Source of the DNA: Trypanosoma brucei
Lineage: Eukaryota
Direction of reading: 5' to 3'
NCBI GenBank assembly: GCA_000002445.1
Contig: CM000207.1
Location: forward strand, 832,001 to 896,000
DNA length: 64,000 bases
The notes beneath the pieces were generated by a model. The model was not told the DNA's origin. It did not search any database and worked only from the letters and a program-made list of their open reading frames with translations. A program made the translations under genes and the position numbers. This document shows positions 1 to 31,823 of the stretch, piece after piece. Position 1 is the first letter of the stretch; each line of letters begins with the position of its first letter.

Positions 1-61
1 GGTTAACACTTTCGTGCATAACACCTCCGCGCGTTCTTAAACGTACAAGCCAGCAAGTTAA

Positions 62-11337: not shown

Positions 11338-11568
11338 CACTCGCTAGAGTTGCAAGTAAGGATGTGGCTTACCGGTGTGTAGGATTGGGTTAGTTACTGT
11401 TGCGTTATATTGTAAATCCCCCTTCACTGCTGCTACTGCTCTATGATGTGTTCCGTGCCTCCCCCCCCCCTATTCCCTTCGCCCGTAAGCTGGAAGCAGG
11501 AGCTTCGTTCATCGTCCGTGGCGCGCAGGGGCATCGCACTAGGCCTCACCTGGAATTTTTAGGGTCCA

Positions 11569-14295: not shown

Positions 14296-14484
14296 ATGAG
14301 TAGCATAGAACAGGTGATTCATTTTTTTTTCCATTCGTGTGTCCCCACCTGTGTTGCTCTGTAACATGTTCTTTTTGTGAGCGCTGCTGCTGCCGCTGCA
14401 TGCACCTGCTTCCGGGCCCCGAGCAAAACAACAACAATACACTATTACTGTTCTGATGTTTTCCGTCGCTGAGATACAGGCTCT

Positions 14485-15729: not shown

Positions 15730-16752
15730 CCGACGTTTTTCGCCCATTTGTCGTCTTTGCGAATACTGAATTATCTAGGTGATGGTAACGGACAGGGCTG
15801 AAAAAGTGGTTGTGAGGGATTCGGTTTTTGTGTCATCGTAGCGACCAAGTTGCTCTGTATTATGCGCCTATGCTTGCTGTTTGTTTTCCCCCCTTTTTTA
15901 AAAAAAGAGGCAATCTTTTCTTTTCCCACGCCTATCAACGCTTTTAAAATCGAAAGCAAGTAACTCGCTAAGGACAAAGTTGTTTTTTCATCATCCCCCT
16001 GGAGACTCGTACCAGGCAAATAACAAAAACAGAGAAACCCGGTGGAGGTTCTACAGCATCGGCAGTGAAAACAATATGCCACCGAAGAGCAACGAAGATT
16101 ACGTGCCACCAAAGGACAAGGCTGAAGCCTTGGCCGAAGAGTACGAAAGTGCGCACCACGACCGCGCGGGATCTAACAAATCGGCCCCGAGTCACCAAAG
16201 CAAACCCAAGTCTGTGCGTTGATGCGGAGGCATCTATACCCGGCCTGCTCATTCTTTCTCTTTTCCCGATTTTGTCCATTTGAGTAATACGACCTCAATA
16301 GGGAATGACTATGGGTATGTGTAGCGTGGAGTGCCCTGCGTGAGCGGGTTGTGAAATTTGGGGGTTGGTGGGAGAAATTTTTTTTTTTTATGGTCGAGCG
16401 AAGGAAAGTTTAAACGAAAACGATCCAGTGCAAAGGGTAAAGAAAAGCAGGAATGCGAAGGAATGGAAGAAATATATTTTCGAAGCATTTATTATTATTA
16501 TTATTTCCATATATCTTTATATTTGTCTTTGTTCCGCTACTGAAATGGTGAAACAGAAAAGTGACGATACCGTTTCGTACGGAAGTATCAGGCACTGATC
16601 ATTGCCACTACTCTGTTGGCTTCCTTCCGTGTTTGGGCGTTGAAACTTTACTCATTTCAACGGTCTCTCTGCTCGGTTTTTTCTATGGTTGCCCTTTTTT
16701 TTTCCTTTTTACTGGTTCAACGCCGAACGGCGAAAAAAAAAAGCAGTCTCCC

Positions 16753-17343
16753 ATGGCGGACGTTGCTGACCCATCGTCAGAACTTATTAATGAGCTACGA
16801 GCACTTGTAGTTAGCGGCAGCGGCTTAGTACCACTTGACGAGAGGAAGGTACACACTGTTGTGGAAAACATGACTGATGCGTTTCGTCACTTGGAGTCCA
16901 TTTCACGGAACCCGTTTGCTGATCCTTCTCAACCTTATTACTCCGGCGCCATGAGGTTTTACAAAGCCAAATGCTTGAGGGATAAGCGCTGCGTGGTGGC
17001 ATACTTGCTGTGGAGACAGTCGCAGATCACGAAGTCATGGTGGGAGGCCCGGGACAACACAATCTCGAACATGTTAGCTCCGTGTGAGCGAACATTCTTG
17101 CAGGATTATAATGATGTCATGGTAGAGTACATGACGTCGTTTGCGGTTCCACTAGATCTTAGGTCATTCACGTGGCGTCCCCCTTCCACGCAGCAGTTGG
17201 AGGTGAGGGGACTGGTAAATCATGTGTTCGTTTCCTCCATCACCGGAGCTGTGATTAACCTTTACAAGGGTAAACAGATTCTTTTGGGATTTGAAGAGGC
17301 CGAATCGCTTATCCAGCAGGGGGTGGTAGAGCTTGTGGAGTAG
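16753..17343 (+). CDS. PSF1: GINS complex subunit Psf1
   Basis: The 196-aa product from [18 protein letters not shown] is the same length as human PSF1. [20 protein letters not shown] matches human [33 protein letters not shown] and the C-terminal [13 protein letters not shown] match human YIEVRCLKDYGEF and EQLIRQGVLEHI. The upstream part of the listed ORF is a pyrimidine tract. Confidence 0.75.
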   Translation: [196 protein letters not shown]

Positions 17344-17632
17344 TATCACCCTGATTGATAACCAACTGTTACCGTGAGGCAGTTAAGCTGGCGATGGCCT
17401 CGTGTGCGTGGTTCTGTGGGGTGACCCAGTTGAGGGAGGTTGTACTTTCCATCTTTTGTTTTTCATCACGTTACGGAAGTGTTCATGAGGGCAACTATGG
17501 GACTGCTCCCTTTTATCCTCTTTTCTTTTTCACTGTTTCCCGTTACAAGAGGTCTTTTTGCAACTTCTCTCATTTTGCTGCCTTCCACTCATTTTCTTGT
17601 GACACAGCCTCTATAGTTGCGACACCTTTTTA

Positions 17633-18469
17633 TTGTGTCTTTTTATGCTGATTAGTGCTGCTGATGTGAGCAGCGCTGCGCTTAGGGAGGAGATTCAACG
17701 GCGGAAAGATTTCTTTGCACTTCTGAATGTTGTGGCGCATCGGATGTATACACCTACGACCGTGGAGTGGCGACTTATAGATCACTGTCTGGGTGAGATA
17801 AACTATAGGTTTGCAGACTTTTCTTTTCTTGCGGGTTTTTTATTAGTGATGCCGATTTGCAGACATAAGCGTACAGCGTTTTCACGCTACGTCCTGCCAT
17901 TTTATGCGGGTCTTGTTGCTTATGACAATGCTCTGAGGTTGACGAACCCGTGCCCTGCAGTTACCTTCTGGAATTCCGTGGTGCTCCTTGACGGTCACTT
18001 GGGTGAAACGGCACGTCAGATATATGCGCCCAAGTGCTTTTACAAAGTTGAAAATGGGCATCGCCAGACCGGGGCACCGGTACGTTACGCCACTTTTCTG
18101 CACTTGTTGTGGGACACCGTTTCCGTTACCGCAGGTTCACTATTACTTCAGACGCTGTTGCGGTATACTTTCAATCGGTCGAGTTGGATGCACGAGTCGG
18201 GAGGCAGCACTGTCACATCTCTTGTCATAAGCACTCGGCTCTTTATTTGGAACGTGTTTGCGCTGAAATCGGAGGACACGAGTGTGGGGCGTGAATACAC
18301 TCTTAGGTTGAGTCTTCCCCACTTTATCGTATCACCGGGCCTTGTTCATTCTTACCGTAGTCGCCACCTGATTCTTTCACGGTCCTCATTTGGGAGTCAC
18401 ATGTGGTACCTTGCACACTTCCCGTGGGTATATTGCCTCAGTTCTAAAGGTAGAAGTCAAGGCGAGTGA
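17633..18469 (+). CDS. Hypothetical protein with no recognisable domain
   Basis: 278-aa ORF on the coding strand, filling the 1.5-kb gap between Psf1 and the next gene. It has some hydrophobic segments but no motif I can place. Confidence 0.3.
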   Translation: MCLFMLISAADVSSAALREEIQRRKDFFALLNVVAHRMYTPTTVEWRLIDHCLGEINYRFADFSFLAGFLLVMPICRHKRTAFSRYVLPFYAGLVAYDNALRLTNPCPAVTFWNSVVLLDGHLGETARQIYAPKCFYKVENGHRQTGAPVRYATFLHLLWDTVSVTAGSLLLQTLLRYTFNRSSWMHESGGSTVTSLVISTRLFIWNVFALKSEDTSVGREYTLRLSLPHFIVSPGLVHSYRSRHLILSRSSFGSHMWYLAHFPWVYCLSSKGRSQGE

Positions 18470-18764
18470 GGCGTGCACGTGTCTGCGATGACGGTAACCG
18501 ACTTAGCTTCCCTTCCTTTTGTTGCCTTCCTCACATTTTTGTTCATTGATGATAGGAGGACGCGTGACGCGGCATGATGCAACGAAATTAAAACAACCCT
18601 GAAAGTTCCTCTTCCTCCATCTGACATTAACTTTCCCTTCCGGTGGCATGTTCCTCCCGGGATGCCGCTGTTTGTGCAGTTGGGCAAGTGCCTCCGCACT
18701 TACATGCTTGCTGATTCCTTCAATGGAAAGGTGGATGGACGGATAACAATCACACTCTTCGTTT

Positions 18765-18821
18765 TTGTAGATCGCTTCGGATTTTTTCTCCGTTCTCCTT
18801 TTGTTTTCGCCTTTTTTTATT
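18765..18821 (+). promoter_or_regulatory. Polypyrimidine tract plus AG acceptor upstream of the HMG-box-like gene
   Basis: cttcggattttttctccgttctccttttgttttcgcctttttttatttttgcggcAG. The first in-frame Met follows 39 nt downstream. Confidence 0.5.
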
Positions 18822-18859
18822 TTTGCGGCAGAGACCCTGTGAGTCTCAGGAATAGAGAT

Positions 18860-20017
18860 ATGAGGCGGTGCTGTTGTGCCAAAAGCGGAAGGCCTCAGTT
18901 TCTCATTGACAGTCCGCACGTTCGCCACAGCATCAATGGCTTTGCTCTGTTCACCAAGGAACTCCAGATGGAGAAGGGTGTGCTGAAGGCGAAGGACCTG
19001 AAGAAGGGTCAAGATAATATGAAAGTTATTTCGTCACACTGGAAACAGCTTTCGAATAAAGAGCGAAATGATTATAATAGACGCGCGCGTGAAATAGGGG
19101 CCATGAGAGTGCCGAACACCGAAAAGGCATTCAACGACTTTAACCTTCTTATGCGTCTCATCTACCGGAGCGAGGACATCGCAGGCGCAGGGGACGAGAC
19201 CTTTACCGCACGCATGGTCAGCAATACAATGGCCCAACTCAATCCAGATCAAAAAAAGAAGCTGCGCAAGGAGTTTGTAACTCCGCCAACTAACATAGAA
19301 AACAAAACAAAGGAACAAATGAGACATATATCGTGGTATTACCCGCATATGCGGTATTTCGACTCTTTTACCGATATGCTTCAGTCTGTGGCACCCACGC
19401 GGAAGGAACTCTTTATCGCCGTCTCACGTGTCTTAAAAGTGAATCGCACCGCTTCCCAGCAGTCTTTGGCGGCGCTGAATCAAAAGTTTGAATCCCTTAA
19501 GGGGACTCATCTTAACAAGTTCCGACCCATCGGTGAGGAGGACATCACCTCTTTCGAGAAGTATTGTGCGTCGAATTGCGCCGGCTTTGACGTCCACGCC
19601 TTTAATATCATACGGCTATTTGCCCAGTTCCGTGGTCTGGTGACAGCGAAGAATTCTCCGAAGGGACAAGAAGCCATACAGTACAAAATGTTAATGGAAG
19701 CGGACCGCTTTCGTGAGAGTCTGTATTTCAAGGCCTTGCGCAATTTGGAGAGGGCCAAAGCTGGTCGAACTGCCGACCACGGGACGTACATTTCATACTT
19801 TTACCCAGATGGGGTATCCGTGCCACCCAAAACGTACGGGATAGAAACCCACTTGAACGATGTTCATGTCGCTACGCTGCTGGCTGAAACAAGGTTTGGG
19901 AGGTCTGTCTACGATGATGTTCTGGAGCGGACGGGCTGTTTCCGCAGCAAAGAAGCTAACCAGCTGCTTAGGGAGACGTACATAAACCCTACAAGCAAGA
20001 AAAAAGGGAAAGAATGA
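18860..20017 (+). CDS. Hypothetical protein with a possible N-terminal HMG-box-like segment. The start is taken at MRRCCC, after the pyrimidine tract and AG.
   Basis: The first 200 nt of the listed ORF translate a CT-rich pyrimidine tract (18765-18817) ending in AG at 18820, so the Met at 18860 is the likely start. RPQFLIDSPHVRHSINGFALFTKELQ...NMKVISSHWKQLSNKERNDYNRRA fits the HMG-box pattern (P..P.SA[YF]..F......W..L...EK..Y...A). Confidence 0.4.
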   Translation: MRRCCCAKSGRPQFLIDSPHVRHSINGFALFTKELQMEKGVLKAKDLKKGQDNMKVISSHWKQLSNKERNDYNRRAREIGAMRVPNTEKAFNDFNLLMRLIYRSEDIAGAGDETFTARMVSNTMAQLNPDQKKKLRKEFVTPPTNIENKTKEQMRHISWYYPHMRYFDSFTDMLQSVAPTRKELFIAVSRVLKVNRTASQQSLAALNQKFESLKGTHLNKFRPIGEEDITSFEKYCASNCAGFDVHAFNIIRLFAQFRGLVTAKNSPKGQEAIQYKMLMEADRFRESLYFKALRNLERAKAGRTADHGTYISYFYPDGVSVPPKTYGIETHLNDVHVATLLAETRFGRSVYDDVLERTGCFRSKEANQLLRETYINPTSKKKGKE

Positions 20018-20211
20018 AGTAACGATTATAGATACATAAACCATTTCCTCTCATTTTTTCCCTCTCTCATGATTACTTTTTATGTTTTCCTCCTTTTCTT
20101 GTTGCATTATGTTACTTGGGGGCATGCGCGTACGGGTGAGTGCTGGTGTTCGGGCTGTTAGGGAAGATGACAATTAATACATGTTCACGTGTGAAGGTCC
20201 CGACATATGGC

Positions 20212-20340
20212 ATTTGTACTTTTTTTTTTTGCGAACTGACGGAAGTTGGTTCTCCTTGCCGGTCGTGCATTCCGCCCTTCTCTCTCCCTTCCAATTCGCT
20301 ACCATTTTTTTTTTGAAATTTCCTTTCCCACTGCTCTGCT
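20212..20340 (+). promoter_or_regulatory. Polypyrimidine tract followed by AG, the presumed trans-splicing (spliced-leader) acceptor signal for PDEB1
   Basis: T12 followed by CT-rich runs (ccatttttttttttgaaatttcctttcccactgctctgcttt) about 200-300 nt upstream of the PDEB1 ATG, with several AG dinucleotides downstream. This is the usual kinetoplastid layout. Confidence 0.55.
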
Positions 20341-20555
20341 TTATGAGGTGTAGAAGCAGATTGTGACGGTGCGACATTTCAATGTATTCTATGACAGTAT
20401 AGCCTTTTCACTTGTTTGTAACTGCTGAATTCTTTAAACTCTCGGCATTTGTTACCTTTTCTCCCCGAGCATCGGCAGCATAACCTTTTGTTTTGCCTAG
20501 AGGACATCTCACTCTCTTAGCATAGTACTCATTGTGCACAGTTGGACACTACGTC

Positions 20556-23348
20556 ATGTTCATGAACAAGCCCTTTGGCAGCAAGCGCTGCGAACCCTTC
20601 CACGAGTCGGAGCACCTTTGTGAGGCGTTTGCCATCACTGAAGCAATCCTCGCTCGCTATCAGCGTGGGAAACGCAGCTTTACGTCCTCCGAAAAAAGTG
20701 GACTGGCAGCCCTTATCAAACGTATTCCTTATGATATCCTTGTTGAGGTTCTCGATCAAAGCGGATTTACTCCAACAAGCAATGCAACACCCCCCGTTGA
20801 TTATTTAGCTATGATGGAGCACACAATGACGCACGGTGCGTCTATTACACACGCCCTGCAGTACCTTAACGATTTGATGACTAAGTGTACCGGGTGCCCG
20901 GGGATTCGTACATATTACCATAACCCCAATGATGACGTTCTGGCCGACCCCGTTCACGACACGGCAGCATTGATTGATGAAACAACAGCCGTGGGAAAGT
21001 CGGTTGTAACTAAACAGTACCTTAATATAGCTGGGGCTCACTACATACCCTTGATCCACGGAGATATTGTGGTTGGTTGTGTTGAGGTACCCCGCTTTTC
21101 GGGAAATCTTGAGGAGTTGCCATCATTCCCATCTCTCATAAGAGCTGTGACATGCACCGCACACAAATTCATTGAGGAAGCGAGAATCAACTGGAACAGG
21201 GAGAAGGCGGAAGCTATGTTGCAAATGGCGACCAGGTTGGCCCGTGACAATCTTGATGAAACAGTACTTGCATCTTCTATCATGAACACTGTCAAGAGTC
21301 TCACGGAAAGTGCACGTTGCAGTCTCTTCCTTGTGAAAGACGACAAGCTTGAAGCGCATTTTGAGGATGGTAACGTCGTTTCCATACCCAAGGGAACAGG
21401 CATTGTAGGGTATGTGGCGCAAACTGGTGAGACTGTTAATATTGTTGATGCCTACGCCGATGACCGCTTTAACCGTGAGGTTGACAAGGCTACTGGGTAC
21501 CGTACAAAGACGATACTCTGCATGCCTGTGATGTACGAAGGAACGATTGTGGCTGTAACCCAGCTGATTAATAAATTGGATCTGACAACTGAGAGTGGAT
21601 TGCGCCTACCTCGTGTGTTCGGAAAACGTGACGAGGAGCTGTTCCAAACCTTCTCTATGTTTGCTGGCGCCTCACTACGTAACTGTCGTATCAATGACCG
21701 ACTCTTAAAGGAGAAGAAAAAGAGTGACGTGATTCTCGATGTTGTTACTGTTCTCTCGAACACGGATATCCGCGATGTGGATGGTATTGTTCGCCACGCA
21801 CTGCACGGAGCAAAGAAACTACTGAACGCGGATCGCTCTACTTTGTTTTTGGTGGACAAGGAACGGAACGAACTTTGCAGTCGTATGGCAGATAGCGTTG
21901 CTGGTAAGGAGATTCGTTTTCCGTGTGGCCAAGGTATTGCGGGCACTGTGGCGGCATCTGGAGTTGGTGAGAATATTCAGGACGCGTACCAGGATCCGCG
22001 TTTCAACCGTGAGGTTGACAAACAACTTGGATACCGCACGCAGACCATATTGTGCGAGCCCATCATACTAAATGGTGAGATCCTTGCTGTCGTGCAGCTC
22101 GTGAACAAGCTTGATACGTCTGGAGAAGTGACTGTGTTTACCGAGGATGATCGTGAGACCTTCCGTGTGTTTTCCTTATTTGCAGGTATATCCATCAACA
22201 ACTCTCACCTGCTTGAGTTCGCTGTGAAAGCGGGTCGTGAGGTGATGGAATTAAATGAACACCGAGCAACATTGTTTAATAAGAACGTTCCCTCACGTGC
22301 GGTTAAACGAGTCACTGCCATTACGAAGGTTGAAAGGGAAGCGGTCTTGGTCTGTGAACTTCCATCGTTTGACGTTACGGATGTTGAGTTCGACTTGTTC
22401 CGAGCGCGTGATACTACGGATAAACCGTTGGATGTTGCTGCTGCTATTGCATACAGACTACTGCTTGGAAGCGGCCTTCCACAAAAGTTTGGTTGCTCTG
22501 ACGAGGTGCTTCTTAACTTCATTCTGCAATGCCGTAAGAAATACCGTAATGTCCCTTATCACAACTTTTACCATGTTGTGGATGTATGCCAAACCATTCA
22601 CACATTCTTGTACAGGGGAAATGTGTATGAGAAGTTAACCGAGCTTGAGTGCTTTGTGCTGCTTATCACCGCACTGGTGCATGATCTTGATCATATGGGG
22701 CTGAACAACAGTTTCTACCTGAAAACAGAATCTCCACTTGGTATTCTTTCCAGCGCAAGTGGTAACACCTCTGTTCTTGAGGTGCATCACTGCAACCTTG
22801 CTGTTGAGATCCTCTCTGATCCGGAATCTGATGTGTTTGGTGGTCTGGAGGGTGCAGAGCGTACTCTTGCGTTCCGATCGATGATTGATTGTGTACTTGC
22901 GACAGATATGGCGAAGCATGGAAGTGCATTAGAGGCGTTTCTTGCATCTGCGGCGGACCAGTCGTCAGACGAGGCGGCGTTTCACCGCATGACGATGGAG
23001 ATACTCTTGAAAGCTGGAGATATCTCTAACGTAACGAAACCGTTCGACATTTCCCGTCAGTGGGCAATGGCTGTGACGGAGGAGTTCTACCGTCAAGGAG
23101 ACATGGAGAAGGAGAGGGGTGTGGAAGTATTGCCCATGTTTGACCGATCTAAGAATATGGAGCTTGCAAAAGGTCAAATTGGATTCATTGACTTTGTCGC
23201 AGCCCCATTTTTCCAGAAGATAGTTGATGCCTGCCTGCAAGGGATGCAATGGACAGTCGACCGTATCAAATCGAACCGCGCACAGTGGGAGCGAGTTCTG
23301 GAAACAAGACTATCAACGAGTTCTGGCAACAACAGCAGTACTCGTTGA
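20556..23348 (+). CDS. PDEB1: cAMP-specific phosphodiesterase with tandem GAF-A and GAF-B domains and a class I PDE catalytic domain (PDEB1)
   Basis: Starting at MFMNKPFGS gives 930 aa, matching TbrPDEB1. Two GAF domains are present (GIVGYVAQTGETVNIVDAYADDRFN and GIAGTVAASGVGENIQDAYQDPRFN). The catalytic domain carries the PDE metal-binding signature YHNFYHVVDVCQ...LLITALVHDLDHMGLNN. It is the upstream copy of a tandem pair. Confidence 0.9.
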   Translation: MFMNKPFGSKRCEPFHESEHLCEAFAITEAILARYQRGKRSFTSSEKSGLAALIKRIPYDILVEVLDQSGFTPTSNATPPVDYLAMMEHTMTHGASITHALQYLNDLMTKCTGCPGIRTYYHNPNDDVLADPVHDTAALIDETTAVGKSVVTKQYLNIAGAHYIPLIHGDIVVGCVEVPRFSGNLEELPSFPSLIRAVTCTAHKFIEEARINWNREKAEAMLQMATRLARDNLDETVLASSIMNTVKSLTESARCSLFLVKDDKLEAHFEDGNVVSIPKGTGIVGYVAQTGETVNIVDAYADDRFNREVDKATGYRTKTILCMPVMYEGTIVAVTQLINKLDLTTESGLRLPRVFGKRDEELFQTFSMFAGASLRNCRINDRLLKEKKKSDVILDVVTVLSNTDIRDVDGIVRHALHGAKKLLNADRSTLFLVDKERNELCSRMADSVAGKEIRFPCGQGIAGTVAASGVGENIQDAYQDPRFNREVDKQLGYRTQTILCEPIILNGEILAVVQLVNKLDTSGEVTVFTEDDRETFRVFSLFAGISINNSHLLEFAVKAGREVMELNEHRATLFNKNVPSRAVKRVTAITKVEREAVLVCELPSFDVTDVEFDLFRARDTTDKPLDVAAAIAYRLLLGSGLPQKFGCSDEVLLNFILQCRKKYRNVPYHNFYHVVDVCQTIHTFLYRGNVYEKLTELECFVLLITALVHDLDHMGLNNSFYLKTESPLGILSSASGNTSVLEVHHCNLAVEILSDPESDVFGGLEGAERTLAFRSMIDCVLATDMAKHGSALEAFLASAADQSSDEAAFHRMTMEILLKAGDISNVTKPFDISRQWAMAVTEEFYRQGDMEKERGVEVLPMFDRSKNMELAKGQIGFIDFVAAPFFQKIVDACLQGMQWTVDRIKSNRAQWERVLETRLSTSSGNNSSTR
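21240..23300 (+). repeat. Tandem-duplicated segment, copy 1 (PDEB1, GAF-B to catalytic domain). It is nearly identical at the DNA level to 26411-28471.
   Basis: Long runs of identical nucleotides shared with copy 2 at a constant offset of 5171 nt. Identity is broken by short divergent patches at about 22300-22420 and 22900-22990 and at the 3' end. The same antisense ORFs appear in both copies as a by-product. Confidence 0.9.
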
Positions 23349-24412
23349 GTGAAATTGAAGAAGTCAGTTGACCGGTGGTAGATGTACGTTCTTGTCAATG
23401 GTGATTTGACTGTGTATTTAAAAAGTGAAATGGAGTTCTGGGAGTACTGTAGTGGATGTGAACACTATCACAATCAAATATTTTCCATGCCTACAGATAT
23501 ACATGATACGTTTGGTACGTGGGTTGCCTTCACGGAAGTATGTACAAATCTTACCAATTTTACCCCCTTGTTTTTTATCTTTTATTGAGTGGTTTCTCTG
23601 TTGTTTTGATTGAGCATGTTTGGAGGTGCAAAGAATTTTTTCCCCCTCCTTTTTTTTCTTTTTTCATTCTGTGTCTTGATCAATATAATTTGGGGTGTTT
23701 CCCCCATGTATATTTTATTTGGATACTGGGAGGGATGCATTTTTTTTCTTTTTTCTTCTTTGGTCTTACTTTGGTTTTTCTAATTTTTTGGGAACTTTGT
23801 ACTGCATGGGTAGCTGACCTCTTAACGCCTACCCATGCGAGACTCCTATCTCTTCTCCCCTGTTTCCCCGTCGCATGGAAGGGAAATGAAGTTGGCTGCA
23901 CCAATTTTTTCTTCCCTCCTTTTCATTCCTATCGCAGTATTTTTTTTTTTTTTGCTGCAGGGAGGTGTAAGAGGGAGTTGTGGCGGTACAGAGTTTCATT
24001 CGAAAAGAACTGCAGTTGGAACGGTAGAGAAGAGGAGGAAGAAGGATATTTGTTTGTGGCAGCGGCAGTGGGAACCGCAACAGGTAAATGGGGGTAATGG
24101 AGGTATAATATGGAAGAAGGAGTGCATATCTTTGTGTTATTTATTCTTGTGCCCTTTTGTTTTTTTTATTGTAGGCATGGATGAGTTGTTGTCGTCATTA
24201 CTCACTTCACCATCGCAACTGCCATTAAATTTTTTTTTTGTAATTTTGTCTTTTTTTTTTCTTTCTTTACCAGTGGGGGAATATTGTGCATGTTGTTGTC
24301 AACGGCCCTGCAGCATACACATGCATGGATGTTTGTATAAAGTCTGAAGTGTGTGACCCTTTGATGTTTCCACCAGGATCGTGACATCCTACCTGATTGC
24401 ATCCGTTGTGCG

Positions 24413-24433
24413 TATATATATATATATATATAT
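24413..24433. repeat. (TA)n microsatellite
   Basis: Direct read of tatatatatatatatatatat in the PDEB1-PDEB2 spacer. Confidence 0.95.
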
Positions 24434-25470
24434 GTTTATACGTTTACACTGCGGTTGTGTGACATTTTATCCCCCTTTAGGGGGTGTTTCTTCCTTTATT
24501 TTACTACCGCAATCCCGTGGTTTCGTCCTTGTAAGGTTCCCTTTGTCGTCTAACTTACAGGTTGGTAGAGGCGGGACAGGGAGAGAAGTATTCGATTTTT
24601 TTTTTGGTGCTTCTCGGCTACAGGCTGCGTATCTGGTTCTATATTTTTGTTCTTTCTTTCCGTGTGGCACCGCAAAAGGTGTAAGTACCAACGGGAGGAG
24701 GCTGGAATCAACGAGGTGTGAGTTATATATGTATATATTGAATATGTGAGTAGTGGAGAGAAGAGAGAAAAGTAAGCAAGCAATCAAACCTGTAAAGAGG
24801 AGATAAAAGGAAAAAAAAATGTAAGGGAAAAAGAGAGCAAATATGCGGCAAATTTGGCGCGATCCAATGCGTGTATTTTTATTGTTGTTATCCTTTCCCT
24901 TTTGTCTGCACCACTACGCTTCTTGCACGAGCAGCACGGTCTTTACTGCAATTTCACTCCTTTGTTATAGTTTGTTATTCCTTCCTTTATTGAGGGAAGT
25001 GGGATTGACCAACCACTACCTCTCGCGCGTAGGAGGAGGAAAACAACAGGTTAACAATGAGGGGAAAACAAGTGGAGGGGATCATGACTACGGGAAAGGA
25101 AAGAGAACAGGATATTAAACACTAAATGCAACGCATGCAACGTTGCAACTCCTCGCAAATGTTTTTACTTCCTAATGAAATGTGGGAAGTGTTTGTGTGC
25201 ATGGCGGCAATGTACATGACAGAATAAAGCCAAGGATGTGCGCGGAGAGGAATAAAGGGGGATATATGAAAAGGAGCAAATAAAGGGTGTTTGACGATTT
25301 ACAACGTACTGTCTCCTCATATTGGTAGCAGTTTTGTTTGATTGTTATTTATTAATTTGATACTTGGCGGATGCCTTCCGTTACAACCATCAGTTTGCGG
25401 ATGGCAGTCACTACTGCCCATGTACACGTGTGGAGCACCTGCGCCGTTAGGTACGAGAAGGCAACTGAGT

Positions 25471-25600
25471 TTTTACACCCATTATTCCACCCTCTTCTAA
25501 GCATTCACCCACTAACTTTTCTCCTTTCGCCCTATTTCTCTTTGTTAATTGTTATGCATTTCGCATGTCGTGAGGCTTGTTTTCTGCCGTCGGTTAGGTA
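25471..25600 (+). promoter_or_regulatory. Polypyrimidine tract, the presumed trans-splicing signal for PDEB2
   Basis: A CT-rich stretch (ccaccctcttctaagcattcacccactaacttttctcctttcgccctatttctctttgtt...) about 130-250 nt upstream of the PDEB2 ATG. Confidence 0.5.
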
Positions 25601-25726
25601 AACTACGTCTGTTGGGCACAGAGATCAAGTGCTAGCACAAATACAGATATAAGTGCGCACAGGGAGAGAGAGAGAGGGACTGCTTCCCCCTTTGCAGATC
25701 CAGATAGCTGGGAAAGACAGAGACAG

Positions 25727-28504
25727 ATGACACACAACGGTGGTCGTCATCTGCTTGAGGCGGTTACGCTATGCGGGTCCATTCTTACCCGCTATAAGCG
25801 GAGCAACATGAAGCTCGACGAAGCTGAGGTAAGGGCATTAAAGGAGTTATTCGAGAAGTATCAAGATATCCTCGTGGATGGATCCCCTGGTTTGCCCACC
25901 CACGCTAGCGGGCCCATGATCCAGCCTCCCGTTACAAACATGGTCGCCCCTTATGATTCCCCCACGGATACTATAGTGAAGTTCGTTGAAGGAACGATAA
26001 ACCTGCAGAGACCAATTGTTGAGGTCCTTCACGTTATGAACGAGCATTTGTCCCTTGTCCTTCGCGCAAAGAACACTCATGTCTTTTATGTCGACCCCGT
26101 TAATAACCTGTTATACGACCCTATTCACGGGGTGGCCGCTGCACTCGATGAATCGTCACCAATAGGAAAGGCCATAGTTTCGGGTGAGCGGCTTAACGTA
26201 GCGGGGACACTATATATACCCATCATCTCCGAGGGGATGCCGTTGGGTTGCGTACTGAGTCCTTGTGGAAGGGCAGATTACCACGCCTCTACGATGCTTG
26301 AGTCATCACTCCGTGTTATTTCCACATCCCTCAAAAACATCATTCAGGCAGAGAAACTAAACTGGAACAAAGAAAAGGCGGAGGCTATGCTCCGGATGGC
26401 AACGCAGCTGGCCCGTGACAATCTTGAAGAAACAGTACTCGCATCTTCTATCATGAACACTGTCAAGAGTCTCACGGAAAGTGCGCGTTGCAGTCTCTTC
26501 CTTGTCAGGGGTGACGTTCTTGAAGCGCATTTTGAGGATGGTAACGTTGTTACAATCCCTAGGGGTGCAGGTATTGCCGGATATGTGGCGCAAACTGGTG
26601 AGACTGTTAATATTGTTGATGCCTACGCCGATGACCGCTTTAACCGTGAGGTTGACAAGGCTACTGGGTACCGTACAAAGACGATACTCTGCATGCCTGT
26701 GATGTACGAAGGAACGATTGTGGCTGTTGCCCAACTGATTAATAAATTGGATCTGACAACTGAGAGTGGATTGCGCCTACCTCGTGTGTTCGGAAGGCGT
26801 GATGAGGAGCTGTTCCAAACCTTCTCTATGTTTGCTGGCGCCTCACTACGTAACTGTCGTATCAACGACCGACTCTTAAAGGAGAAGAAAAAGAGTGACG
26901 TGATTCTCGATGTTGTTACTGTTCTCTCGAACACGGATATCCGCGATGTGGATGGTATTGTTCGCCACGCACTGCACGGAGCAAAGAAACTACTGAACGC
27001 GGATCGCTCTACTTTGTTTTTGGTGGACAAGGAACGGAACGAACTTTGCAGTCGTATGGCAGATAGCGTTGCTGGTAAGGAGATTCGTTTTCCGTGTGGC
27101 CAAGGTATTGCGGGCACTGTGGCGGCATCTGGAGTTGGTGAGAATATTCAGGACGCGTACCAGGATCCGCGTTTCAACCGTGAGGTTGACAAACAACTTG
27201 GATACCGCACGCAGGCCATATTGTGCGAGCCCATCATACTAAATGGTGAGATCCTTGCTGTCGTGCAGCTCGTGAACAAGCTTGATTCATCTGGAGAAGT
27301 GACTGTGTTTACCGAGGATGATCGTGACACCTTCCGTGTGTTTTCCTTATTTGCAGGTATATCCATCAACAACTCTCACCTGCTTGAGTTCGCTGTGAAG
27401 GCGGGTCGTGAGGTGATGGAATTAAATGAACACCGAGCAACATTGTTTAATAAGAACGTTCCCTCACGTGGAGTTAAACGAGTCACTGCCATCACAAATA
27501 GAGAAAGGGAGGCTGTGCTACGTATTGAGTTCCCCAACGTGGACGTTACGGATATTGACTTCGACTTGTTCCAGGCACGTGAAAGTACAGATAAACCGTT
27601 GGATGTTGCTGCTGCTATTGCATACAGACTACTGCTTGGAAGCGGCCTTCCACAAAAGTTTGGTTGCTCTGACGAGGTGCTTCTTAACTTCATTCTGCAA
27701 TGCCGTAAGAAATACCGTAATGTCCCTTATCACAACTTTTACCATGTTGTGGATGTATGCCAAACCATTTACACATTCTTGTACAGGGGAAATGTGTATG
27801 AGAAGTTAACCGAGCTTGAGTGCTTTGTGCTGCTTATCACCGCACTGGTGCATGATCTTGATCATATGGGGCTGAACAACAGTTTCTACCTGAAAACAGA
27901 ATCTCCACTTGGTATTCTTTCCAGCGCAAGTGGTAACAAGTCTGTTCTTGAGGTGCATCACTGCAACCTTGCTGTTGAGATCCTCTCTGATCCGGAATCT
28001 GATGTGTTTGGTGGTCTGGAGGGTGCAGAGCGTACTCTTGCGTTCCGATCGATGATTGATTGTGTACTTGCGACAGATATGGCGAGACATAGTGAATTTC
28101 TTGAGAAGTACCTAGAGCTTATGAAAACATCTTACAACGTTGATGATTCCGATCATCGGCAAATGACAATGGATGTGCTTATGAAAGCTGGAGATATCTC
28201 TAACGTAACGAAACCGTTCGACATTTCCCGTCAGTGGGCAATGGCTGTGACGGAGGAGTTCTACCGTCAAGGAGACATGGAAAAGGAGAGGGGTGTGGAA
28301 GTATTGCCCATGTTTGACCGATCTAAGAATATGGAGCTTGCAAAAGGTCAAATTGGATTCATTGACTTTGTCGCAGCCCCATTTTTCCAGAAGATAGTTG
28401 ATGCCTGCCTGCAAGGGATGCAATGGACAGTCGACCGTACAAAGTCGAACCGCGCACAGTGGGAGCGAGTTCTGGAAGCAAGGAGTACAGGGGCTTCGTC
28501 TTAG
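25727..28504 (+). CDS. PDEB2: cAMP-specific phosphodiesterase with tandem GAF domains and a PDE catalytic domain (PDEB2), the downstream tandem paralogue
   Basis: 925 aa, matching TbrPDEB2. The N-terminal GAF-A region differs from the upstream copy. From about residue 210 onward the nucleotide sequence is nearly identical to PDEB1 apart from short mosaic patches. It carries the same YHNFYHVVDVCQ...HDLDHMG catalytic signature. Confidence 0.9.
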   Translation: MTHNGGRHLLEAVTLCGSILTRYKRSNMKLDEAEVRALKELFEKYQDILVDGSPGLPTHASGPMIQPPVTNMVAPYDSPTDTIVKFVEGTINLQRPIVEVLHVMNEHLSLVLRAKNTHVFYVDPVNNLLYDPIHGVAAALDESSPIGKAIVSGERLNVAGTLYIPIISEGMPLGCVLSPCGRADYHASTMLESSLRVISTSLKNIIQAEKLNWNKEKAEAMLRMATQLARDNLEETVLASSIMNTVKSLTESARCSLFLVRGDVLEAHFEDGNVVTIPRGAGIAGYVAQTGETVNIVDAYADDRFNREVDKATGYRTKTILCMPVMYEGTIVAVAQLINKLDLTTESGLRLPRVFGRRDEELFQTFSMFAGASLRNCRINDRLLKEKKKSDVILDVVTVLSNTDIRDVDGIVRHALHGAKKLLNADRSTLFLVDKERNELCSRMADSVAGKEIRFPCGQGIAGTVAASGVGENIQDAYQDPRFNREVDKQLGYRTQAILCEPIILNGEILAVVQLVNKLDSSGEVTVFTEDDRDTFRVFSLFAGISINNSHLLEFAVKAGREVMELNEHRATLFNKNVPSRGVKRVTAITNREREAVLRIEFPNVDVTDIDFDLFQARESTDKPLDVAAAIAYRLLLGSGLPQKFGCSDEVLLNFILQCRKKYRNVPYHNFYHVVDVCQTIYTFLYRGNVYEKLTELECFVLLITALVHDLDHMGLNNSFYLKTESPLGILSSASGNKSVLEVHHCNLAVEILSDPESDVFGGLEGAERTLAFRSMIDCVLATDMARHSEFLEKYLELMKTSYNVDDSDHRQMTMDVLMKAGDISNVTKPFDISRQWAMAVTEEFYRQGDMEKERGVEVLPMFDRSKNMELAKGQIGFIDFVAAPFFQKIVDACLQGMQWTVDRTKSNRAQWERVLEARSTGASS
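26411..28471 (+). repeat. Tandem-duplicated segment, copy 2 (PDEB2)
   Basis: See copy 1. Matching blocks include 26411-27470 against 21240-22299 and 27590-28070 against 22419-22899. Confidence 0.9.
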
Positions 28505-29527
28505 GCGGAAGGTTAATAATCGTGAGCCTGGTTGACGAAGATAGGCCACTTACCTTATCTAATGTTGCAGAGTGCAACACCGTAAAACCTTTTTGGCAGT
28601 GGTGATATGACGTTGAAAGAGGGTGCCAAATCTACTTGCGTTGACATACCCATGTATTTGCACTCTGTCGTTAATTTTACGGTGTGTTTGTGTCCCCGTT
28701 TTGCCAAATAGCTAGTTATTGTTTCAATTTGTAAGTAAGTTTGGTGATGTTCTTCTTTATGCCTGTCTATAATCTTTCGTTTTGTTGTTTTGATTTTTTT
28801 TCCTTAGCATATTGACTTTTTTACCTCTCTTCCCTCTCTGTCTTCGTACATGTCCCTTCTATCTGCTTTGTCCCTCCATCTCATAATTCTGTTTTTTTAT
28901 TGGTTTATTTTGCTTTTTTTTTTCATTATCTTTATCATTTTAATCATCATCATCATGACAAAAATGTCTCCTTACACTGTGCACCTTGCCTTGTGGTGAT
29001 TTGCTTGGTTCCGTATCAAAGGGTATTTACTCTGTCATGCACTTTTGTATGCCTTATGAGCACCATCGAGTTCGCTCCTTGTTTGCGCGTCGATGCGCAT
29101 GCTTAGCTTTGTGCATATATATCTGCTTGTTTATGTATATATCTTTTTCTGGACACGTGATGTACTGTGCCTTTTCTGTGTTTTTTTTTGAGATTTAATT
29201 ATGTAGATATACCCAGATATAAATATTTCCGTATGTTTGTATATATGTTGTGGTGGAGGGAAGGGGCAGTGAGCCATGTGATAAAACGGGATAAACGATA
29301 AAAGAAAAAGTGATGAGAAGGGGAAGGAGATAGAGGATAGGAGAAAAGGGGAAGAGGAAAAAAGGGGGATGGGGGTGGGCAATACTATTAGGGTTTGTTT
29401 CCGCGGGTTAGGGTCGGAGAGGGTGAAGGAGATAAGAAAGCAACTTGGGAATGGGGACGCAGTGTCACAAATTTTTATTTGCTCATTCCTTGGCCTTTAT
29501 AGGCGCTGCTGTTTTACTTCCTTTTCC

Positions 29528-29593
29528 GTGTCTGTGTCTGTGTGTGTTTCTTCGCGTGTCTACGTGCGTGTGTATGTGTGTCTGTGTGCGTGC
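29528..29593. repeat. Imperfect GT-rich (TGTG/CGTG) tract
   Basis: Direct read of ccgtgtctgtgtctgtgtgtgtttcttcgcgtgtctacgtgcgtgtgtatgtgtgtctgtgtgcgtgc in the PDEB2-SNU13 spacer. Confidence 0.85.
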
Positions 29594-29951
29594 TTTTGGA
29601 TCGGCAACTGGCATTCTCTCCAGAAAGCCACACCTCTTTTTCCTTTTTGTACTGATGATATGTAATGTTTTATCTATGTTTTCAATTGCTTGATTCTAAG
29701 CTCACCTGCAGCACTCCTTTAATAGGTGATGTGCGGAAAGATATTTAACTCTTACCCTATTAAACAATAGACTCATTTTGTCACTGTTGCCGCACTGTCT
29801 ATTTTCTTCTTCTTCTTCCTTTTTGTATTCGCCAATAATACTTTCACGTACCCGCATAAACTTATGTGTCTGTGTGTGTACGCGTCCGTGCGAATCTCAC
29901 ATTTCTATCAAACATTATTGCTTGCAAGGTGCATATCTAACGTTTATCGCG

Positions 29952-30332
29952 ATGACGGCTGAAATCAGCGAAAAGGCTTTCCCTCTTGCTGGCGATCGCC
30001 TCACGCAGACCATCCTGGACATAGTACAGGAAGCCAGTAATGCAAAGATGATTAAGAAGGGAGCCAATGAGGCCACGAAGGCGCTCAACCGTGGTATTGC
30101 GGACCTGATCGTGCTTGCGGGCGATACGAACCCTATCGAGATCCTTCTTCACCTCCCGCTTCTATGCGAAGACAAAAATGTGCCGTACGTGTTTGTTCCC
30201 TCAAAGACGGCATTAGGGCGCGCGGCGCAAGTGTCACGGAATGCGGTGGCTCTAGCGATCCTCCAGATGGAGAACAGCCCCATTTCGGCTAAGATACAGG
30301 CGGTTAAATTGGAGATTGAACGGCTCCTGTAG
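29952..30332 (+). CDS. SNU13: Snu13 / 15.5K (NHP2L1), an L7Ae-family K-turn RNA-binding protein found in U4 snRNP and box C/D snoRNPs
   Basis: The 126-aa product [91 protein letters not shown] aligns almost residue-for-residue with human NHP2L1 ([20 protein letters not shown]...[56 protein letters not shown]). Confidence 0.85.
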   Translation: [126 protein letters not shown]

Positions 30333-31823
30333 TGATGCGTCTTCACTGTAAAGGGGATGCAGACTGAAAAAAGGAAAGCAAAGTACAACGGAGGCTGAAA
30401 CTTAAACCAAAAAAAAATAATTATAACAAAACAAAAAGAAAAGATACAAAATCAAGGAAGAGAAAAGAAGAAGAGAGAGGAGCGTAAAGTAAAGGGAAGG
30501 AATGGTGGGCGAGACTGGGATGCACGAGTATAATAACGAGCAAACGGTAAACCTGCATTTTTAAATGTCGTTAATAAGCTGGGGGGATAGGCGACGAAAA
30601 GGAAAAGAGAATCAAGTGTTGATTGCGGAAGCGGACCGCGGGAGGAGAGAAGAGAGATGCTGTGTGAAACTATTATTTAAACAGAGAGAAAGTCAGAGGA
30701 GGTCGACGGGAAGGGGAGGTACCTTTTCCTTGTTTGTGTTCATGTGTGTGCTATTGTGCTAAAGGAGCTGGAGGGGATGTGGATGTGGGTGACACTGGGT
30801 CGACGCCTCTTCATCCTCTCCTTCGTTAATATCTCTTAAGTTCCTTGAAGCAATCACGACAAGATCACTCACAATCAAATTTTTGAGGGTGAGAATAAGA
30901 ACAAACTGGAGGAGGAGAGGGGTGGGTGGAAGGATGGGATTGAGGACCAAGGACTGATGAGGGGGGAGGCGTTTCATCGAGTCACAAAAAATGTTAGGGG
31001 TGAACCCACTGCAACCGCGCTCACCCCCACGCACGCTCTCACGTGCACATGTGTGTGTGTGTGTGCTTGTCCTCTGCTCCCGTGCCGTCTTTCCTTCCCC
31101 GTCTCCTTGGTGTCAATAATATCTAACACATTTTCAACTCTTTCTAACTACGCTTCCGCATATTTTCCGCCTTCCCTTACCCCTTGAGGAAATATGAAAC
31201 GCTTATATAATGTGGTTCACGTACATGTGCCTTTTTGTCGTTAAATACCCTCTTATTCCATGGTCGCGGGAGCGCATATGCTTTTGATTAGTTGTCCTAT
31301 GTTTTCCCTTTAACTGTTTCTTTCTTAGAGTTCTGTCACTTTCACTGGCGCATGCATGCGTACGTCTGTGGAAAGTCTTAGGCTTCAGAAGGGTTAAATG
31401 AAACTTTGAGACCGACGAAGCGGCCCATGTCGGCAATCCAGCGGTGCACCACCGCCAAGTGAATTATTCGGTCAAGCTGGGTGTGAAAGGCATTTGGTAT
31501 AATCCCATCCTTTCACAATAAAGAGACAAGCACCGAATATGTTTTTTTCCTTTTTGATACGTTTTTAGATGAATTCTGCATAGACATGCGTGTGGAGTAC
31601 CTGTTGGCAGTTGCTCCATTTATTTCACTAACTTTCTTCGATTTGGTATCGGGTAGTTTACCTCTAGTCACGGTGCCTCCCCCTTTGTCCTTGTAGGTGC
31701 GACAAGAAGGAGACGCGCACTCACCATTGCGTGTATGCCATGTCTGAAACCAACCTTTTTGCCCCATTCACGTTCAATCACAAAAAAAAATCTCTCTTTG
31801 CTGCCTTACTGCTAGTTACTGCA

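What the first reader, a model, noticed from the sequence alone, without database searches (positions are those of the whole stretch)
20556..28504. Tandem PDEB1/PDEB2 phosphodiesterase pair with mosaic, conversion-like identity
Two dual-GAF class I PDE genes of 930 and 925 aa sit head-to-tail 5.17 kb apart. Their N-terminal GAF-A regions are clearly different at both protein and DNA level. From about codon 230 onward the DNA is almost base-for-base identical for stretches of about 1.06 kb, 0.48 kb and 0.3 kb. These runs are separated by two short, strongly divergent patches: VCELPSFDVTDVEFDLFRARDTT against RIEFPNVDVTDIDFDLFQARESTD, and AKHGSALEAFLASAADQSSDEAAF against ARHSEFLEKYLELMKTSYNVDDSDHRQ. 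The two C-termini also differ. Identical blocks interleaved with divergent patches suggest ongoing gene conversion, with selection keeping GAF-A (ligand sensing) and a linker/helix patch distinct. The divergent patches would be natural sites for paralogue-specific regulation or localisation.
Basis: partly seen in the sequence, partly recalled or inferred. Interest (0 to 1): 0.5.

Follow-up and report, generated by a model that had tools for sequence, protein, structure and literature searches.

The report
PDEB1/PDEB2 tandem genes homogenised by conversion
These are the well-studied Trypanosoma brucei cAMP phosphodiesterase genes TbrPDEB1 and TbrPDEB2, whose patchwork of identical and divergent stretches comes from repeated gene conversion between the two neighbours, a process already shown experimentally at this locus, so the finding is real but not new.

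Summary
Window 20556-23348 and 25727-28504 encode proteins 100% identical to T. b. brucei TREU927 TbrPDEB1 (930 aa) and TbrPDEB2 (925 aa). Synonymous divergence between them is bimodal. dS is 0.01-0.05 in three blocks (aa 286-589, 622-787, 818-913). It is at or near saturation in the N-terminus, patch 1 (aa 590-621) and patch 2 (aa 788-817).

Comparison with other trypanosomatids shows concerted evolution. The central blocks cluster by species (100% bootstrap in seven pairs; an eighth, T. congolense, has pS 0.000 over a 111-codon overlap). The N-terminus and patch 2 cluster by paralogue type. Flanking DNA shares no homology.

Gene conversion is therefore supported, but it is published. Kunz et al. 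2009 demonstrated a B1-to-B2 conversion here. Johner et al. 2006 described the diverged N-terminus and the helix 12-13 patch in three species.

GAF-A (aa 238-374) lies inside the homogenised region. The divergent part lies upstream of it.

New here:
- Patch 1 is divergent only in T. brucei and partly in T. congolense.
- The patch 2 difference has been erased in Lotmaria and Porcisia and probably in Viannia.

The parts
20556..23348 (+). TbrPDEB1 coding sequence (930 aa plus stop)
   Evidence: ORF. Translation identical to TREU927 XP_803808 / P0001. Pfam GAF x2 and PDEase_I.
25727..28504 (+). TbrPDEB2 coding sequence (925 aa plus stop), unconverted 'PDEB2a' allele
   Evidence: ORF. Identical to TREU927 XP_803815 / P0003. 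It carries R261 G262 V264 T276 R279 A281 A284 A335 R357, the wild-type states listed by Kunz 2009.
20556..21170 (+). PDEB1 N-terminal island that escapes conversion (aa 1-205): N-terminal helices plus a predicted cryptic GAF fold (aa ~97-180) and the start of a long connecting helix
25727..26341 (+). PDEB2 N-terminal island (aa 1-205)
   Evidence: Same as for PDEB1. DNA homology between the two genes starts only at 21169 / 26340.
21171..21410 (+). PDEB1 soft 5' boundary zone (aa 206-285; end of connecting helix and first part of GAF-A), partly homogenised. PDEB2 counterpart: 26342-26581
   Evidence: pS 0.42 and pN 0.10; dS 0.46 for aa 228-285. This zone lies within the tract converted in Lister427 (ORF nt 702-1362 at most). 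In the other species it is homogenised (pS 0.04-0.15).
21411..22322 (+). Homogenised block 1 in PDEB1 (aa 286-589: rest of GAF-A, GAF-B, linker helix). PDEB2 counterpart: 26582-27493
   Evidence: dS 0.043, about 15 differences in 912 nt. Species-pair clades at 100% bootstrap.
22323..22418 (+). Patch 1 in PDEB1 (aa 590-621: first two helices of the catalytic domain, H591-598 and H614-619). PDEB2 counterpart: 27494-27589
   Evidence: pS 0.69 and pN 0.23 in T. brucei, but 0.000 in T. cruzi, T. melophagium, L. infantum, L. martiniquensis, Novymonas and Lotmaria. Secondary structure.
22419..22916 (+). Homogenised block 2 in PDEB1 (aa 622-787, N-terminal half of the catalytic domain). PDEB2 counterpart: 27590-28087
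   Evidence: dS 0.013, about 5 differences in 498 nt. Species-pair clades at 100%.
22917..23006 (+). Patch 2 in PDEB1 (aa 788-817: helix 12, loop, helix 13 of the catalytic domain). PDEB2 counterpart: 28088-28180 (31 codons)
   Evidence: pS 0.81-0.90 and pN 0.51-0.53. Divergent in 6 of 7 species pairs and clusters by paralogue type. Helices H785-800 and H806-822. Described as a 24-aa dissimilar stretch spanning helices 12-13 by Johner 2006.
23007..23294 (+). Homogenised block 3 in PDEB1 (aa 818-913, C-terminal part of the catalytic domain). PDEB2 counterpart: 28181-28468
   Evidence: dS 0.05, about 5 differences in 288 nt. Species-pair clades at 100%.
23295..23348 (+). Divergent C-terminal tail of PDEB1 (aa 914-930 plus stop). 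PDEB2 counterpart: 28469-28504
   Evidence: Tails differ. DNA homology ends at 23308 / 28482.
23349..25726 (.). Unique intergenic spacer (2378 nt) with no similarity to the regions flanking the pair
   Evidence: blastn of the two units. No Rfam family.
29778..30332 (+). Downstream syntenic L7Ae/NHP2-family gene that marks the conserved locus
   Evidence: ORF. A 126-aa L7Ae gene follows the last PDEB gene in T. cruzi, L. infantum, T. grayi, T. melophagium, L. martiniquensis, Novymonas, Lotmaria and Porcisia; in T. vivax the last PDEB ORF reads into an L7Ae-like C-terminus. Johner 2006.

Best explanation
This is the TbrPDEB1/TbrPDEB2 tandem pair on chromosome 9 of T. brucei TREU927. The duplication is ancient: it predates at least the diversification within Trypanosoma and within Leishmaniinae, and conserved synteny suggests it predates their split. 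Since then, about 2.1 kb of coding sequence, from just upstream of GAF-A to just before the stop codon, has been repeatedly overwritten between the two copies. The mechanism is short-tract, non-reciprocal homologous recombination (ectopic gene conversion). This has happened independently in each lineage and is still happening among T. brucei strains.

The flanks share no homology, so they cannot take part. Within the gene, some islands escape: the N-terminal ~200 residues, a ~30-codon patch at helices 12-13 of the catalytic domain, and, in T. brucei, a ~32-codon patch at the first two catalytic-domain helices.

Shown here: the concerted-evolution pattern, the tract limits and the orthology of the islands. 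Taken from the literature: one direct conversion event, and a different subcellular localisation of the two enzymes, attributed to the N-terminus. Inferred: the islands persist because converted variants are selected against, helped by the fact that strongly diverged sequence is itself a poor recombination substrate.
For: - Both proteins are 100% identical to TREU927 PDEB1 and PDEB2.
- dS is bimodal along the gene: 0.013-0.05 in the blocks, and about 1.9 to saturation in the islands.
- Differences are clustered far beyond chance.
- DNA homology is confined to 21169-23308 against 26340-28482, with no UTR or intergenic similarity. This excludes a recent whole-unit duplication.
- In seven species pairs, paralogue pS in the central blocks is 0.00-0.05, while orthologue pS in the same blocks is 0.28-0.83. 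T. congolense adds an eighth pair (pS 0.000 over aa 245-355, against about 0.75 between T. brucei and T. congolense).
- NJ bootstrap: species-pair clades reach 100% for all three central blocks. Paralogue-type clades reach 96-100% for the N-terminus and 59-97% for patch 2.
- Gene order B1, B2, L7Ae is conserved.
- Strain variants flip between B1 and B2 states at diagnostic sites: aa 513, 537, 550, 619-620 and 682.
- Kunz 2009: a Southern-verified 297-660 bp B1-to-B2 conversion in one allele of Lister427.
- Within a paralogue type, patch 2 has omega 0.19-0.46 and the N-terminus 0.21-0.36, so both are constrained rather than free-running.
- The title of Luginbuehl 2010 assigns the flagellar-skeleton signal to the PDEB1 N-terminus (seen only in a reference list).
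Against: - Selection on patch 2 is not demonstrated. [quoted passage not shown]
- The patch 2 difference has been erased in Lotmaria and Porcisia, in an unnamed JGI pair, and apparently in Viannia, so it is dispensable in some lineages.
- Patch 2 evolves faster than its flanks, so some of its divergence could be relaxed constraint.
- Orthology of patch 2 types between Trypanosoma and Leishmaniinae is unresolved (0% bootstrap). An all-B1 clade for the N-terminus has only 36% support.
- Strain-level flips were scored on proteins only and cannot be polarised.
- Several database 'recombinants' may be assembly or PCR artefacts.
Confidence: 0.9

Rival explanations
1. Conversion occurs, but the islands persist only mechanically. 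Once a stretch is too diverged, strand invasion, heteroduplex extension and mismatch-repair surveillance stop tracts at its edges. No paralogue-specific function of patches 1 and 2 is then needed.
For: - Island edges are sharp, and the 5' edge of patch 2 coincides within a few codons in six species.
- Patch 2 lies in a fast-evolving part of the catalytic domain: orthologue pN is 0.15-0.44 against 0.03-0.10 in the flanks.
- The patch 2 difference was lost several times without loss of the gene pair.
- B1 and B2 kinetics are alike.
- Kunz 2009 cites dependence of T. brucei recombination on substrate length and sequence conservation.
Against: - Tracts of 297-660 bp are several times longer than the 90-nt patch, and both flanks are homogenised to pS of about 0 in every species. 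Tracts anchored in the two flanks should therefore span the patch often.
- Yet the two types have persisted through species divergences at which synonymous sites are at or near saturation.
- Within each type the patch is under purifying selection (omega 0.19-0.46).
- A purely mechanical model does not explain how a patch first diverged while it was being homogenised.
Confidence: 0.3
2. A single recent event in T. brucei (partial re-duplication or one long conversion) created the identical blocks. There is no continuing process.
For: The residual differences in the three blocks are similar (dS 0.013-0.05), which one event followed by some drift could produce.
Against: - The same pattern, with independent species-specific homogenisation, occurs in seven other species.
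- The aa 206-285 zone has an intermediate dS of 0.46, which indicates events of different ages.
- One allele of Lister427 carries a further, strain-specific conversion.
- Diagnostic sites differ among strains.
Confidence: 0.03
3. The identity at synonymous sites reflects purifying selection on the nucleotide sequence itself (codon usage, mRNA structure or an antisense element), not recombination.
For: The blocks encode the most conserved protein domains. Between Leishmaniinae species, dS in the blocks (0.34-0.85) is mostly lower than in the islands (0.67-1.46).
Against: Orthologues of the same blocks differ at 28-83% of synonymous sites between species, so synonymous sites are free to change. 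No Rfam family is present. The 164-aa antisense ORFs are mirror copies with no other support.
Confidence: 0.02
4. Assembly artefact: reads from two similar genes were merged, giving falsely identical blocks.
For: This locus is prone to collapse. The L. major database once held a single chimera. T. congolense P0002, T. grayi and T. b. equiperdum show single or chimeric genes.
Against: - Both genes were independently cloned and sequenced and mapped by Southern blot.
- The catalytic domains of both were expressed and crystallised with these sequences (4I15 and 5G2B for B1, 5H2Q for B2).
- T. b. gambiense DAL972 has the same two genes.
- The blocks still contain scattered real differences.
Confidence: 0.01

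Closest known systems
TbrPDEB1/TbrPDEB2 gene conversion in Lister427 (Kunz, Luginbuehl, Seebeck 2009, PLoS Negl Trop Dis 3:e455)
   Same: Same locus, same two genes, same spacing (2379 bp reported, 2378 nt measured here), same mechanism. The paper gives the per-domain identities: N-terminus 44.8%, GAF-A 94.4%, GAF-B 100%, catalytic domain 90.8%.
   Different: The paper documents one strain-specific event covering the GAF-A tract. It does not analyse synonymous sites, other species or the two catalytic-domain patches. The window carries the unconverted PDEB2a allele.
LmjPDEB1/LmjPDEB2 of Leishmania major (Johner et al. 2006, BMC Microbiol 6:25)
   Same: Tandem pair followed by NHP2. The first ~230 aa are diverged and the rest 96.6% identical. 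[quoted passage not shown]
   Different: A protein-level description with no recombination interpretation. Patch 1 is absent from Leishmania. The paper does not show that patch 2 follows orthology or that it has been erased in some lineages.
Gene conversion among the tandem phosphoglycerate kinase genes of T. brucei (recalled from memory: Le Blancq et al. 1988, J Mol Biol; not read here)
   Same: Tandem paralogues in a trypanosome whose core is homogenised while the ends that set different subcellular locations stay distinct.
   Different: A different enzyme family and locus. The comparison rests on my recollection, not on a tool result.
Mammalian GAF-containing phosphodiesterases (PDE2, PDE5, PDE6, PDE10, PDE11)
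   Same: Tandem GAF domains followed by a class I catalytic domain joined by long helices. The best non-kinetoplastid sequence hits are PDE11 and PDE5. The best fold hits for the N-terminal region are the PDE2A, PDE5A and PDE6 GAF domains.
   Different: The mammalian enzymes are described with two GAF domains. The kinetoplastid PDEB model shows three GAF-fold units, the first of which lacks the segment that GAF-A has at 'AYADDRFNREVDKATGYRT'.

Membership tests
Kinetoplastid PDEB (class I cAMP phosphodiesterase with GAF-A and GAF-B) | Class I PDE catalytic domain | tested here: met
   Pfam PDEase_I, E 5e-74 and 3e-76, aa 668-903 in both. Sequence matches solved TbrPDEB1, TbrPDEB2 and LmjPDEB1 catalytic domains.
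Kinetoplastid PDEB (class I cAMP phosphodiesterase with GAF-A and GAF-B) | Two GAF domains N-terminal to the catalytic domain | tested here: met
   Pfam GAF / GAF_2 at aa 238-374 and 406-546 in both proteins.
Kinetoplastid PDEB (class I cAMP phosphodiesterase with GAF-A and GAF-B) | Identity with the named genes, and tandem position upstream of NHP2/L7Ae | tested here: met
   Exact identity to TREU927 XP_803808 and XP_803815. Conserved gene order in the other species, as shown in their assemblies.
Kinetoplastid PDEB (class I cAMP phosphodiesterase with GAF-A and GAF-B) | cAMP-specific hydrolysis; cAMP binding by GAF-A | not testable with these tools
   Taken from the literature only.
Concerted evolution by interlocus gene conversion | Paralogues within a species are more alike than orthologues between species, at synonymous sites, in the same region | tested here: met
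   Paralogue pS 0.00-0.05 against orthologue pS 0.28-0.83 in seven species pairs, plus T. congolense.
Concerted evolution by interlocus gene conversion | Phylogenetic discordance along the gene (mosaic history) | tested here: met
   Central blocks cluster by species at 100%. The N-terminus and patch 2 cluster by paralogue type.
Concerted evolution by interlocus gene conversion | Not explained by recent duplication of the whole unit | tested here: met
   No homology in UTRs or spacers in seven species. Contrast T. vivax, where whole 3496-nt units including spacers are 99.5-100% identical.
Concerted evolution by interlocus gene conversion | Direct observation of a non-reciprocal transfer with the donor unchanged | not testable with these tools
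   Shown by Kunz 2009 using sequencing and Southern blots. Here there are only protein-level state flips among strains.
GAF fold (for the divergent N-terminal region, aa ~97-231) | Six-stranded antiparallel sheet flanked by helices, superposable on known GAF domains | tested here: met
   [not shown]
GAF fold (for the divergent N-terminal region, aa ~97-231) | Match to a GAF sequence profile | tested here: inconclusive
   No Pfam hit at E<=10. hhalign against the protein's own GAF-A profile gives probability 63% and pairwise E 7e-5.
GAF fold (for the divergent N-terminal region, aa ~97-231) | Small-molecule binding pocket | not testable with these tools
   The alignment shows an 18-residue deletion relative to GAF-A. 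The binding capacity is unknown.

The most novel reading that the evidence does not exclude
The helix 12-13 patch is a paralogue-specific surface of the catalytic domain that selection has held in two forms through most of trypanosomatid evolution despite continuous homogenisation of everything around it. That would imply an undiscovered isoform-specific partner or regulatory contact. The real paralogue-specific module at the N-terminus would be a previously unrecognised third GAF-fold domain. In T. brucei, patch 1 would add a lineage-specific second distinguishing surface.
Probability: 0.35. Interest if true: 0.45.

Novelty: already known. Interest (0 to 1): 0.28.

Why it matters
TbrPDEB1 and TbrPDEB2 are jointly essential and are validated drug targets for sleeping sickness.

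Because conversion keeps their catalytic domains almost identical, one inhibitor hits both. A resistance mutation in one copy could be spread to the other, or erased, by the same process.

The islands that resist homogenisation are the logical places to look for what makes the two enzymes different, that is, flagellar skeleton versus cytosol. Knowing that GAF-A is not one of those islands, and that the N-terminus probably holds a third GAF-like fold, sharpens that search.

The locus is also a repeated trap for genome assemblers.

Tried and rejected
- Pfam scan of the 233 N-terminal residues of both proteins at E<=10: no hit. The cryptic GAF fold appeared only through profile-profile and structure comparison.
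- Rfam scan of 18000-31000: nothing. No RNA element explains the conservation or the spacer.
- Tree test for orthology of patch 2 types across the Trypanosoma/Leishmaniinae split: no support (0%). An all-B1 N-terminal clade reached only 36%.
- T. b. equiperdum 'B1 with a B2 tail' as evidence of a 3' conversion: rejected as such. The assembly has a single fused gene whose junction lies within aa 851-904, equivalent to deleting one 5.17-kb repeat unit. It is either an unequal crossover or an assembly collapse.
- T. congolense P0002 (B1 N-terminus with B2-type patch 2) as a natural swap: rejected. Contig L007 shows the standard arrangement.
- L. braziliensis locus, fetched to confirm that patch 2 is homogenised within one Viannia species: the assembly places the gene in a different context with no second copy. 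The Viannia inference rests on comparing L. braziliensis with L. guyanensis.
- Luginbuehl 2010 could not be read. Only its title is used.
- Literature searches for 'concerted evolution' with PDEB1/PDEB2, and for a third GAF domain in PDEB1, found nothing. This covers only the held library.
Full report
**What is there.** The window holds two head-to-tail ORFs, 20556-23348 (930 aa) and 25727-28504 (925 aa). Their starts are 5171 nt apart and the spacer is 2378 nt. Their translations are identical, residue for residue, to T. brucei brucei TREU927 XP_803808 and XP_803815, that is, TbrPDEB1 and TbrPDEB2. Pfam places GAF-A at aa 238-374, GAF-B at 406-546 and the class I phosphodiesterase domain at 668-903 in both.

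**Check of the observation.** I made a codon alignment and Nei-Gojobori estimates per segment.

| Segment (PDEB1 aa) | Result |
|---|---|
| 1-227 | dS about 2.0 |
| 228-285 | dS 0.46 |
| 286-589 | dS 0.043 |
| 590-621 (patch 1) | dS about 1.9 |
| 622-787 | dS 0.013 |
| 788-817 (patch 2) | pS 0.90, saturated |
| 818-913 | dS 0.05 |
| C-terminal tail | dS 0.55 |

The longest identical run is 348 nt. In 2000 shuffles of the differences the mean was 35 and the maximum 71. Third codon positions alone give 140 against a maximum of 49. Two corrections are needed. The first ~170 nt of the '1.06 kb' block are only about 86% identical. The strongly divergent N-terminal region ends upstream of GAF-A, so it is not GAF-A.

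**Where the homology stops.** blastn of the two repeat units finds similarity only between 21169-23308 and 26340-28482. The 5' flanks, 3' UTRs and spacer share nothing. This rules out a recent duplication of the whole unit.

**Other species.** A protein search returned PDEB pairs from many trypanosomatids. I fetched the DNA of the locus from the following:
- T. cruzi
- L. infantum
- T. grayi
- T. melophagium
- T. vivax
- T. congolense
- L. martiniquensis
- Novymonas
- Lotmaria
- Porcisia

Where the assembly is intact, the gene order is conserved: a B1-type gene, then a B2-type gene, then a 126-aa L7Ae/NHP2 gene. The window has that gene at 29778-30332.

- **Central blocks.** In seven species pairs, paralogue pS in the three central blocks is 0.00-0.05. 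Orthologue pS in the same blocks is 0.28-0.83. T. congolense adds an eighth pair: pS 0.000 over aa 245-355, against about 0.75 between T. brucei and T. congolense.
- **Trees.** Neighbour-joining trees with 200 bootstraps group the two paralogues of each species at 100% in all three central blocks. The N-terminus groups by paralogue type at 96-100% within Trypanosoma and within Leishmaniinae. Patch 2 groups by type at 59-97%.
- **Tract limits.** In every species the homogenised tract starts 420-700 nt into the coding sequence and ends between 56 nt before and 29 nt after the stop codon. In Lotmaria it is 2108 nt at 100% identity.

This is concerted evolution by recurrent conversion, not constraint on synonymous sites and not a single event.

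**The islands differ in history.**
- **N-terminal island.** It ends at PDEB1 residue ~198-211 in all species other than T. brucei. T. brucei has a soft boundary reaching residue ~285.
- **Patch 2.** It is divergent in T. brucei, T. cruzi, T. melophagium, L. infantum, L. martiniquensis and Novymonas (pN 0.33-0.56). Its 5' edge coincides within a few codons in all six, and each copy is closer to the same-type copy of another species. For example, T. brucei B1 against T. congolense B1 gives pN 0.144, but T. brucei B2 against T. congolense B1 gives 0.527. The two copies are identical in this patch in Lotmaria, Porcisia, an unnamed JGI pair and, judged across two species, Viannia.
- **Patch 1.** It is divergent only in T. 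brucei. Its first third is also divergent in T. congolense, where the B2-like copy shares 'NRERE' with T. brucei B2. Its pS is as high as the T. brucei/T. congolense divergence, so it is roughly as old as that split.
- **Constraint within type.** Among Leishmaniinae, omega is 0.19-0.46 for patch 2, 0.21-0.36 for the N-terminus, and 0.05-0.10 for the flanking catalytic blocks (0.08-0.13 for the GAF core, aa 286-589).

**Is conversion ongoing?** Database variants of the T. brucei genes carry the other paralogue's state at single diagnostic sites: aa 619-620 and 550 in some B1 alleles, and 513 and 537 in T. b. gambiense B2. Kunz et al. 2009 showed, by sequencing and Southern blots, that one TbrPDEB2 allele of Lister427 received 297-660 bp of TbrPDEB1 sequence covering GAF-A. 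TbrPDEB1 itself was unchanged and TbrPDEB2 localisation was unaffected. The window's PDEB2 has the unconverted states at all nine affected residues.

**What the divergent parts are.**
- **Patches.** An AlphaFold2 model of full-length PDEB1 (pLDDT 77.6) places patch 1 on the first two helices of the catalytic domain (H591-598 and H614-619). It places patch 2 on H785-800, a loop and H806-822. This matches Johner et al. 2006, who assigned it to predicted helices 12-13.

The part that escapes conversion is therefore a short helical N-terminus plus a cryptic GAF-like domain. I found no description of this in the held library. That is weak evidence of novelty, because public predicted models of these proteins exist.

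**Comparison with what is known.** The tandem arrangement, the diverged first ~230 residues, the near-identity of the rest and the dissimilar helix 12-13 stretch at the same position in L. major, T. brucei and T. cruzi were all published in 2006. Gene conversion at this locus was published in 2009. The two enzymes differ in localisation. The title of Luginbuehl et al. 2010 assigns the flagellar-skeleton signal to the PDEB1 N-terminus (reference list; the paper itself is not held).

This analysis adds five things:
- a synonymous-site and phylogenetic demonstration that homogenisation is recurrent and independent in eight species
- the orthology of patch 2 types within each major clade
- repeated loss of the patch 2 difference
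- the lineage restriction of patch 1
- the predicted third GAF fold

**Mechanism and its uncertain step.** Conversion itself is secure. Why the islands persist is inferred. I favour selection against converted variants, for three reasons. Tracts of 297-660 bp are several times longer than a 90-nt patch. Both flanks of the patch are homogenised to pS of about 0 in every species. Each patch type is under purifying selection. A purely mechanical barrier from sequence divergence is a serious rival, for two reasons: the kinetics of the two enzymes are alike, and the patch 2 difference has been lost in several lineages.

**Verdict.** This is a correct observation of a real and statistically unambiguous pattern. 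The mechanism was correctly guessed, but a domain was mislabelled, and both the locus and the mechanism are already in the literature. Interest is low to moderate.

Noticed in passing
[not shown]
   Followed up: yes
L006 (T. vivax) 1-16490: At least five tandem B2-type PDEB copies with a 3496-nt period. They are 99.5-100% identical including the spacers, so this is whole-unit amplification, unlike the B1/B2 mosaic. No B1-type copy lies within the locus. The last ORF (13383-16490) loses homology about 180 nt before the end of the coding sequence and reads on to an L7Ae-like C-terminus (fusion or misassembly).
   Followed up: partly
L012 (T. b. equiperdum) 10001-12775 and L004 (T. grayi) 10001-12781: Each assembly has a single PDEB gene that is B1-like at the 5' end and B2-like at the 3' end. 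In T. b. equiperdum the junction lies within aa 851-904 and the locus lacks exactly one repeat unit relative to the window. In T. grayi patch 2 and the tail are B2-type. No N runs lie next to the gene in either. These are either real unequal-crossover fusions or assembly collapses.
   Followed up: partly
P0002 (T. congolense G0UTQ6) against L007 5-2074 and 3960-5040: The full-length T. congolense model combines a B1 N-terminus with a B2-type patch 2. However, a 5-kb contig shows the standard arrangement: a copy with B1-type patch 2 followed by a B2-type N-terminus. The model is probably a collapsed chimera, as Johner 2006 reported for the early L. major database.
   Followed up: partly
P0131 (GenBank AAG43461, 930 aa, T. 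brucei): An early cloned 'phosphodiesterase' is B2-like up to aa 335 and B1-like from aa 357 to the end, including both patches and the tail. It is either a natural recombinant allele or a PCR/cloning chimera of the two genes.
   Followed up: partly
L011 (Porcisia hertigi) 1-18783: Four PDEB genes in tandem: one B1-type (partial in the locus) followed by three B2-type copies. Patch 2 is nearly identical in all of them (0-2 amino-acid differences between copies).
   Followed up: partly
window 21452-21946 (-) and 26623-27117 (-): Two 164-aa antisense ORFs that are near-identical mirror copies inside the homogenised GAF-A/GAF-B block. They are most likely a by-product of the duplication, not genes.
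   Followed up: no
Leishmaniinae orthologue comparisons (L002, L008, L009): Between species, dS in the islands that escape conversion (0.67-1.46) is mostly higher than in the homogenised blocks (0.34-0.85). The cause is undetermined; it could be codon constraint, biased conversion or alignment noise.
   Followed up: no
L013 (L. braziliensis M2904) 10001-12814: In this assembly the B2-type PDEB gene sits between a CorA-domain gene and a UCH-domain gene, with no second PDEB copy and no L7Ae gene nearby. Every other species examined has those neighbours. This is a rearrangement or a misassembly.
   Followed up: no
window 24411-24442: A short palindromic match (32 nt at 87.5%, with a 20-nt perfect core) in the PDEB1-PDEB2 spacer.
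   Followed up: no
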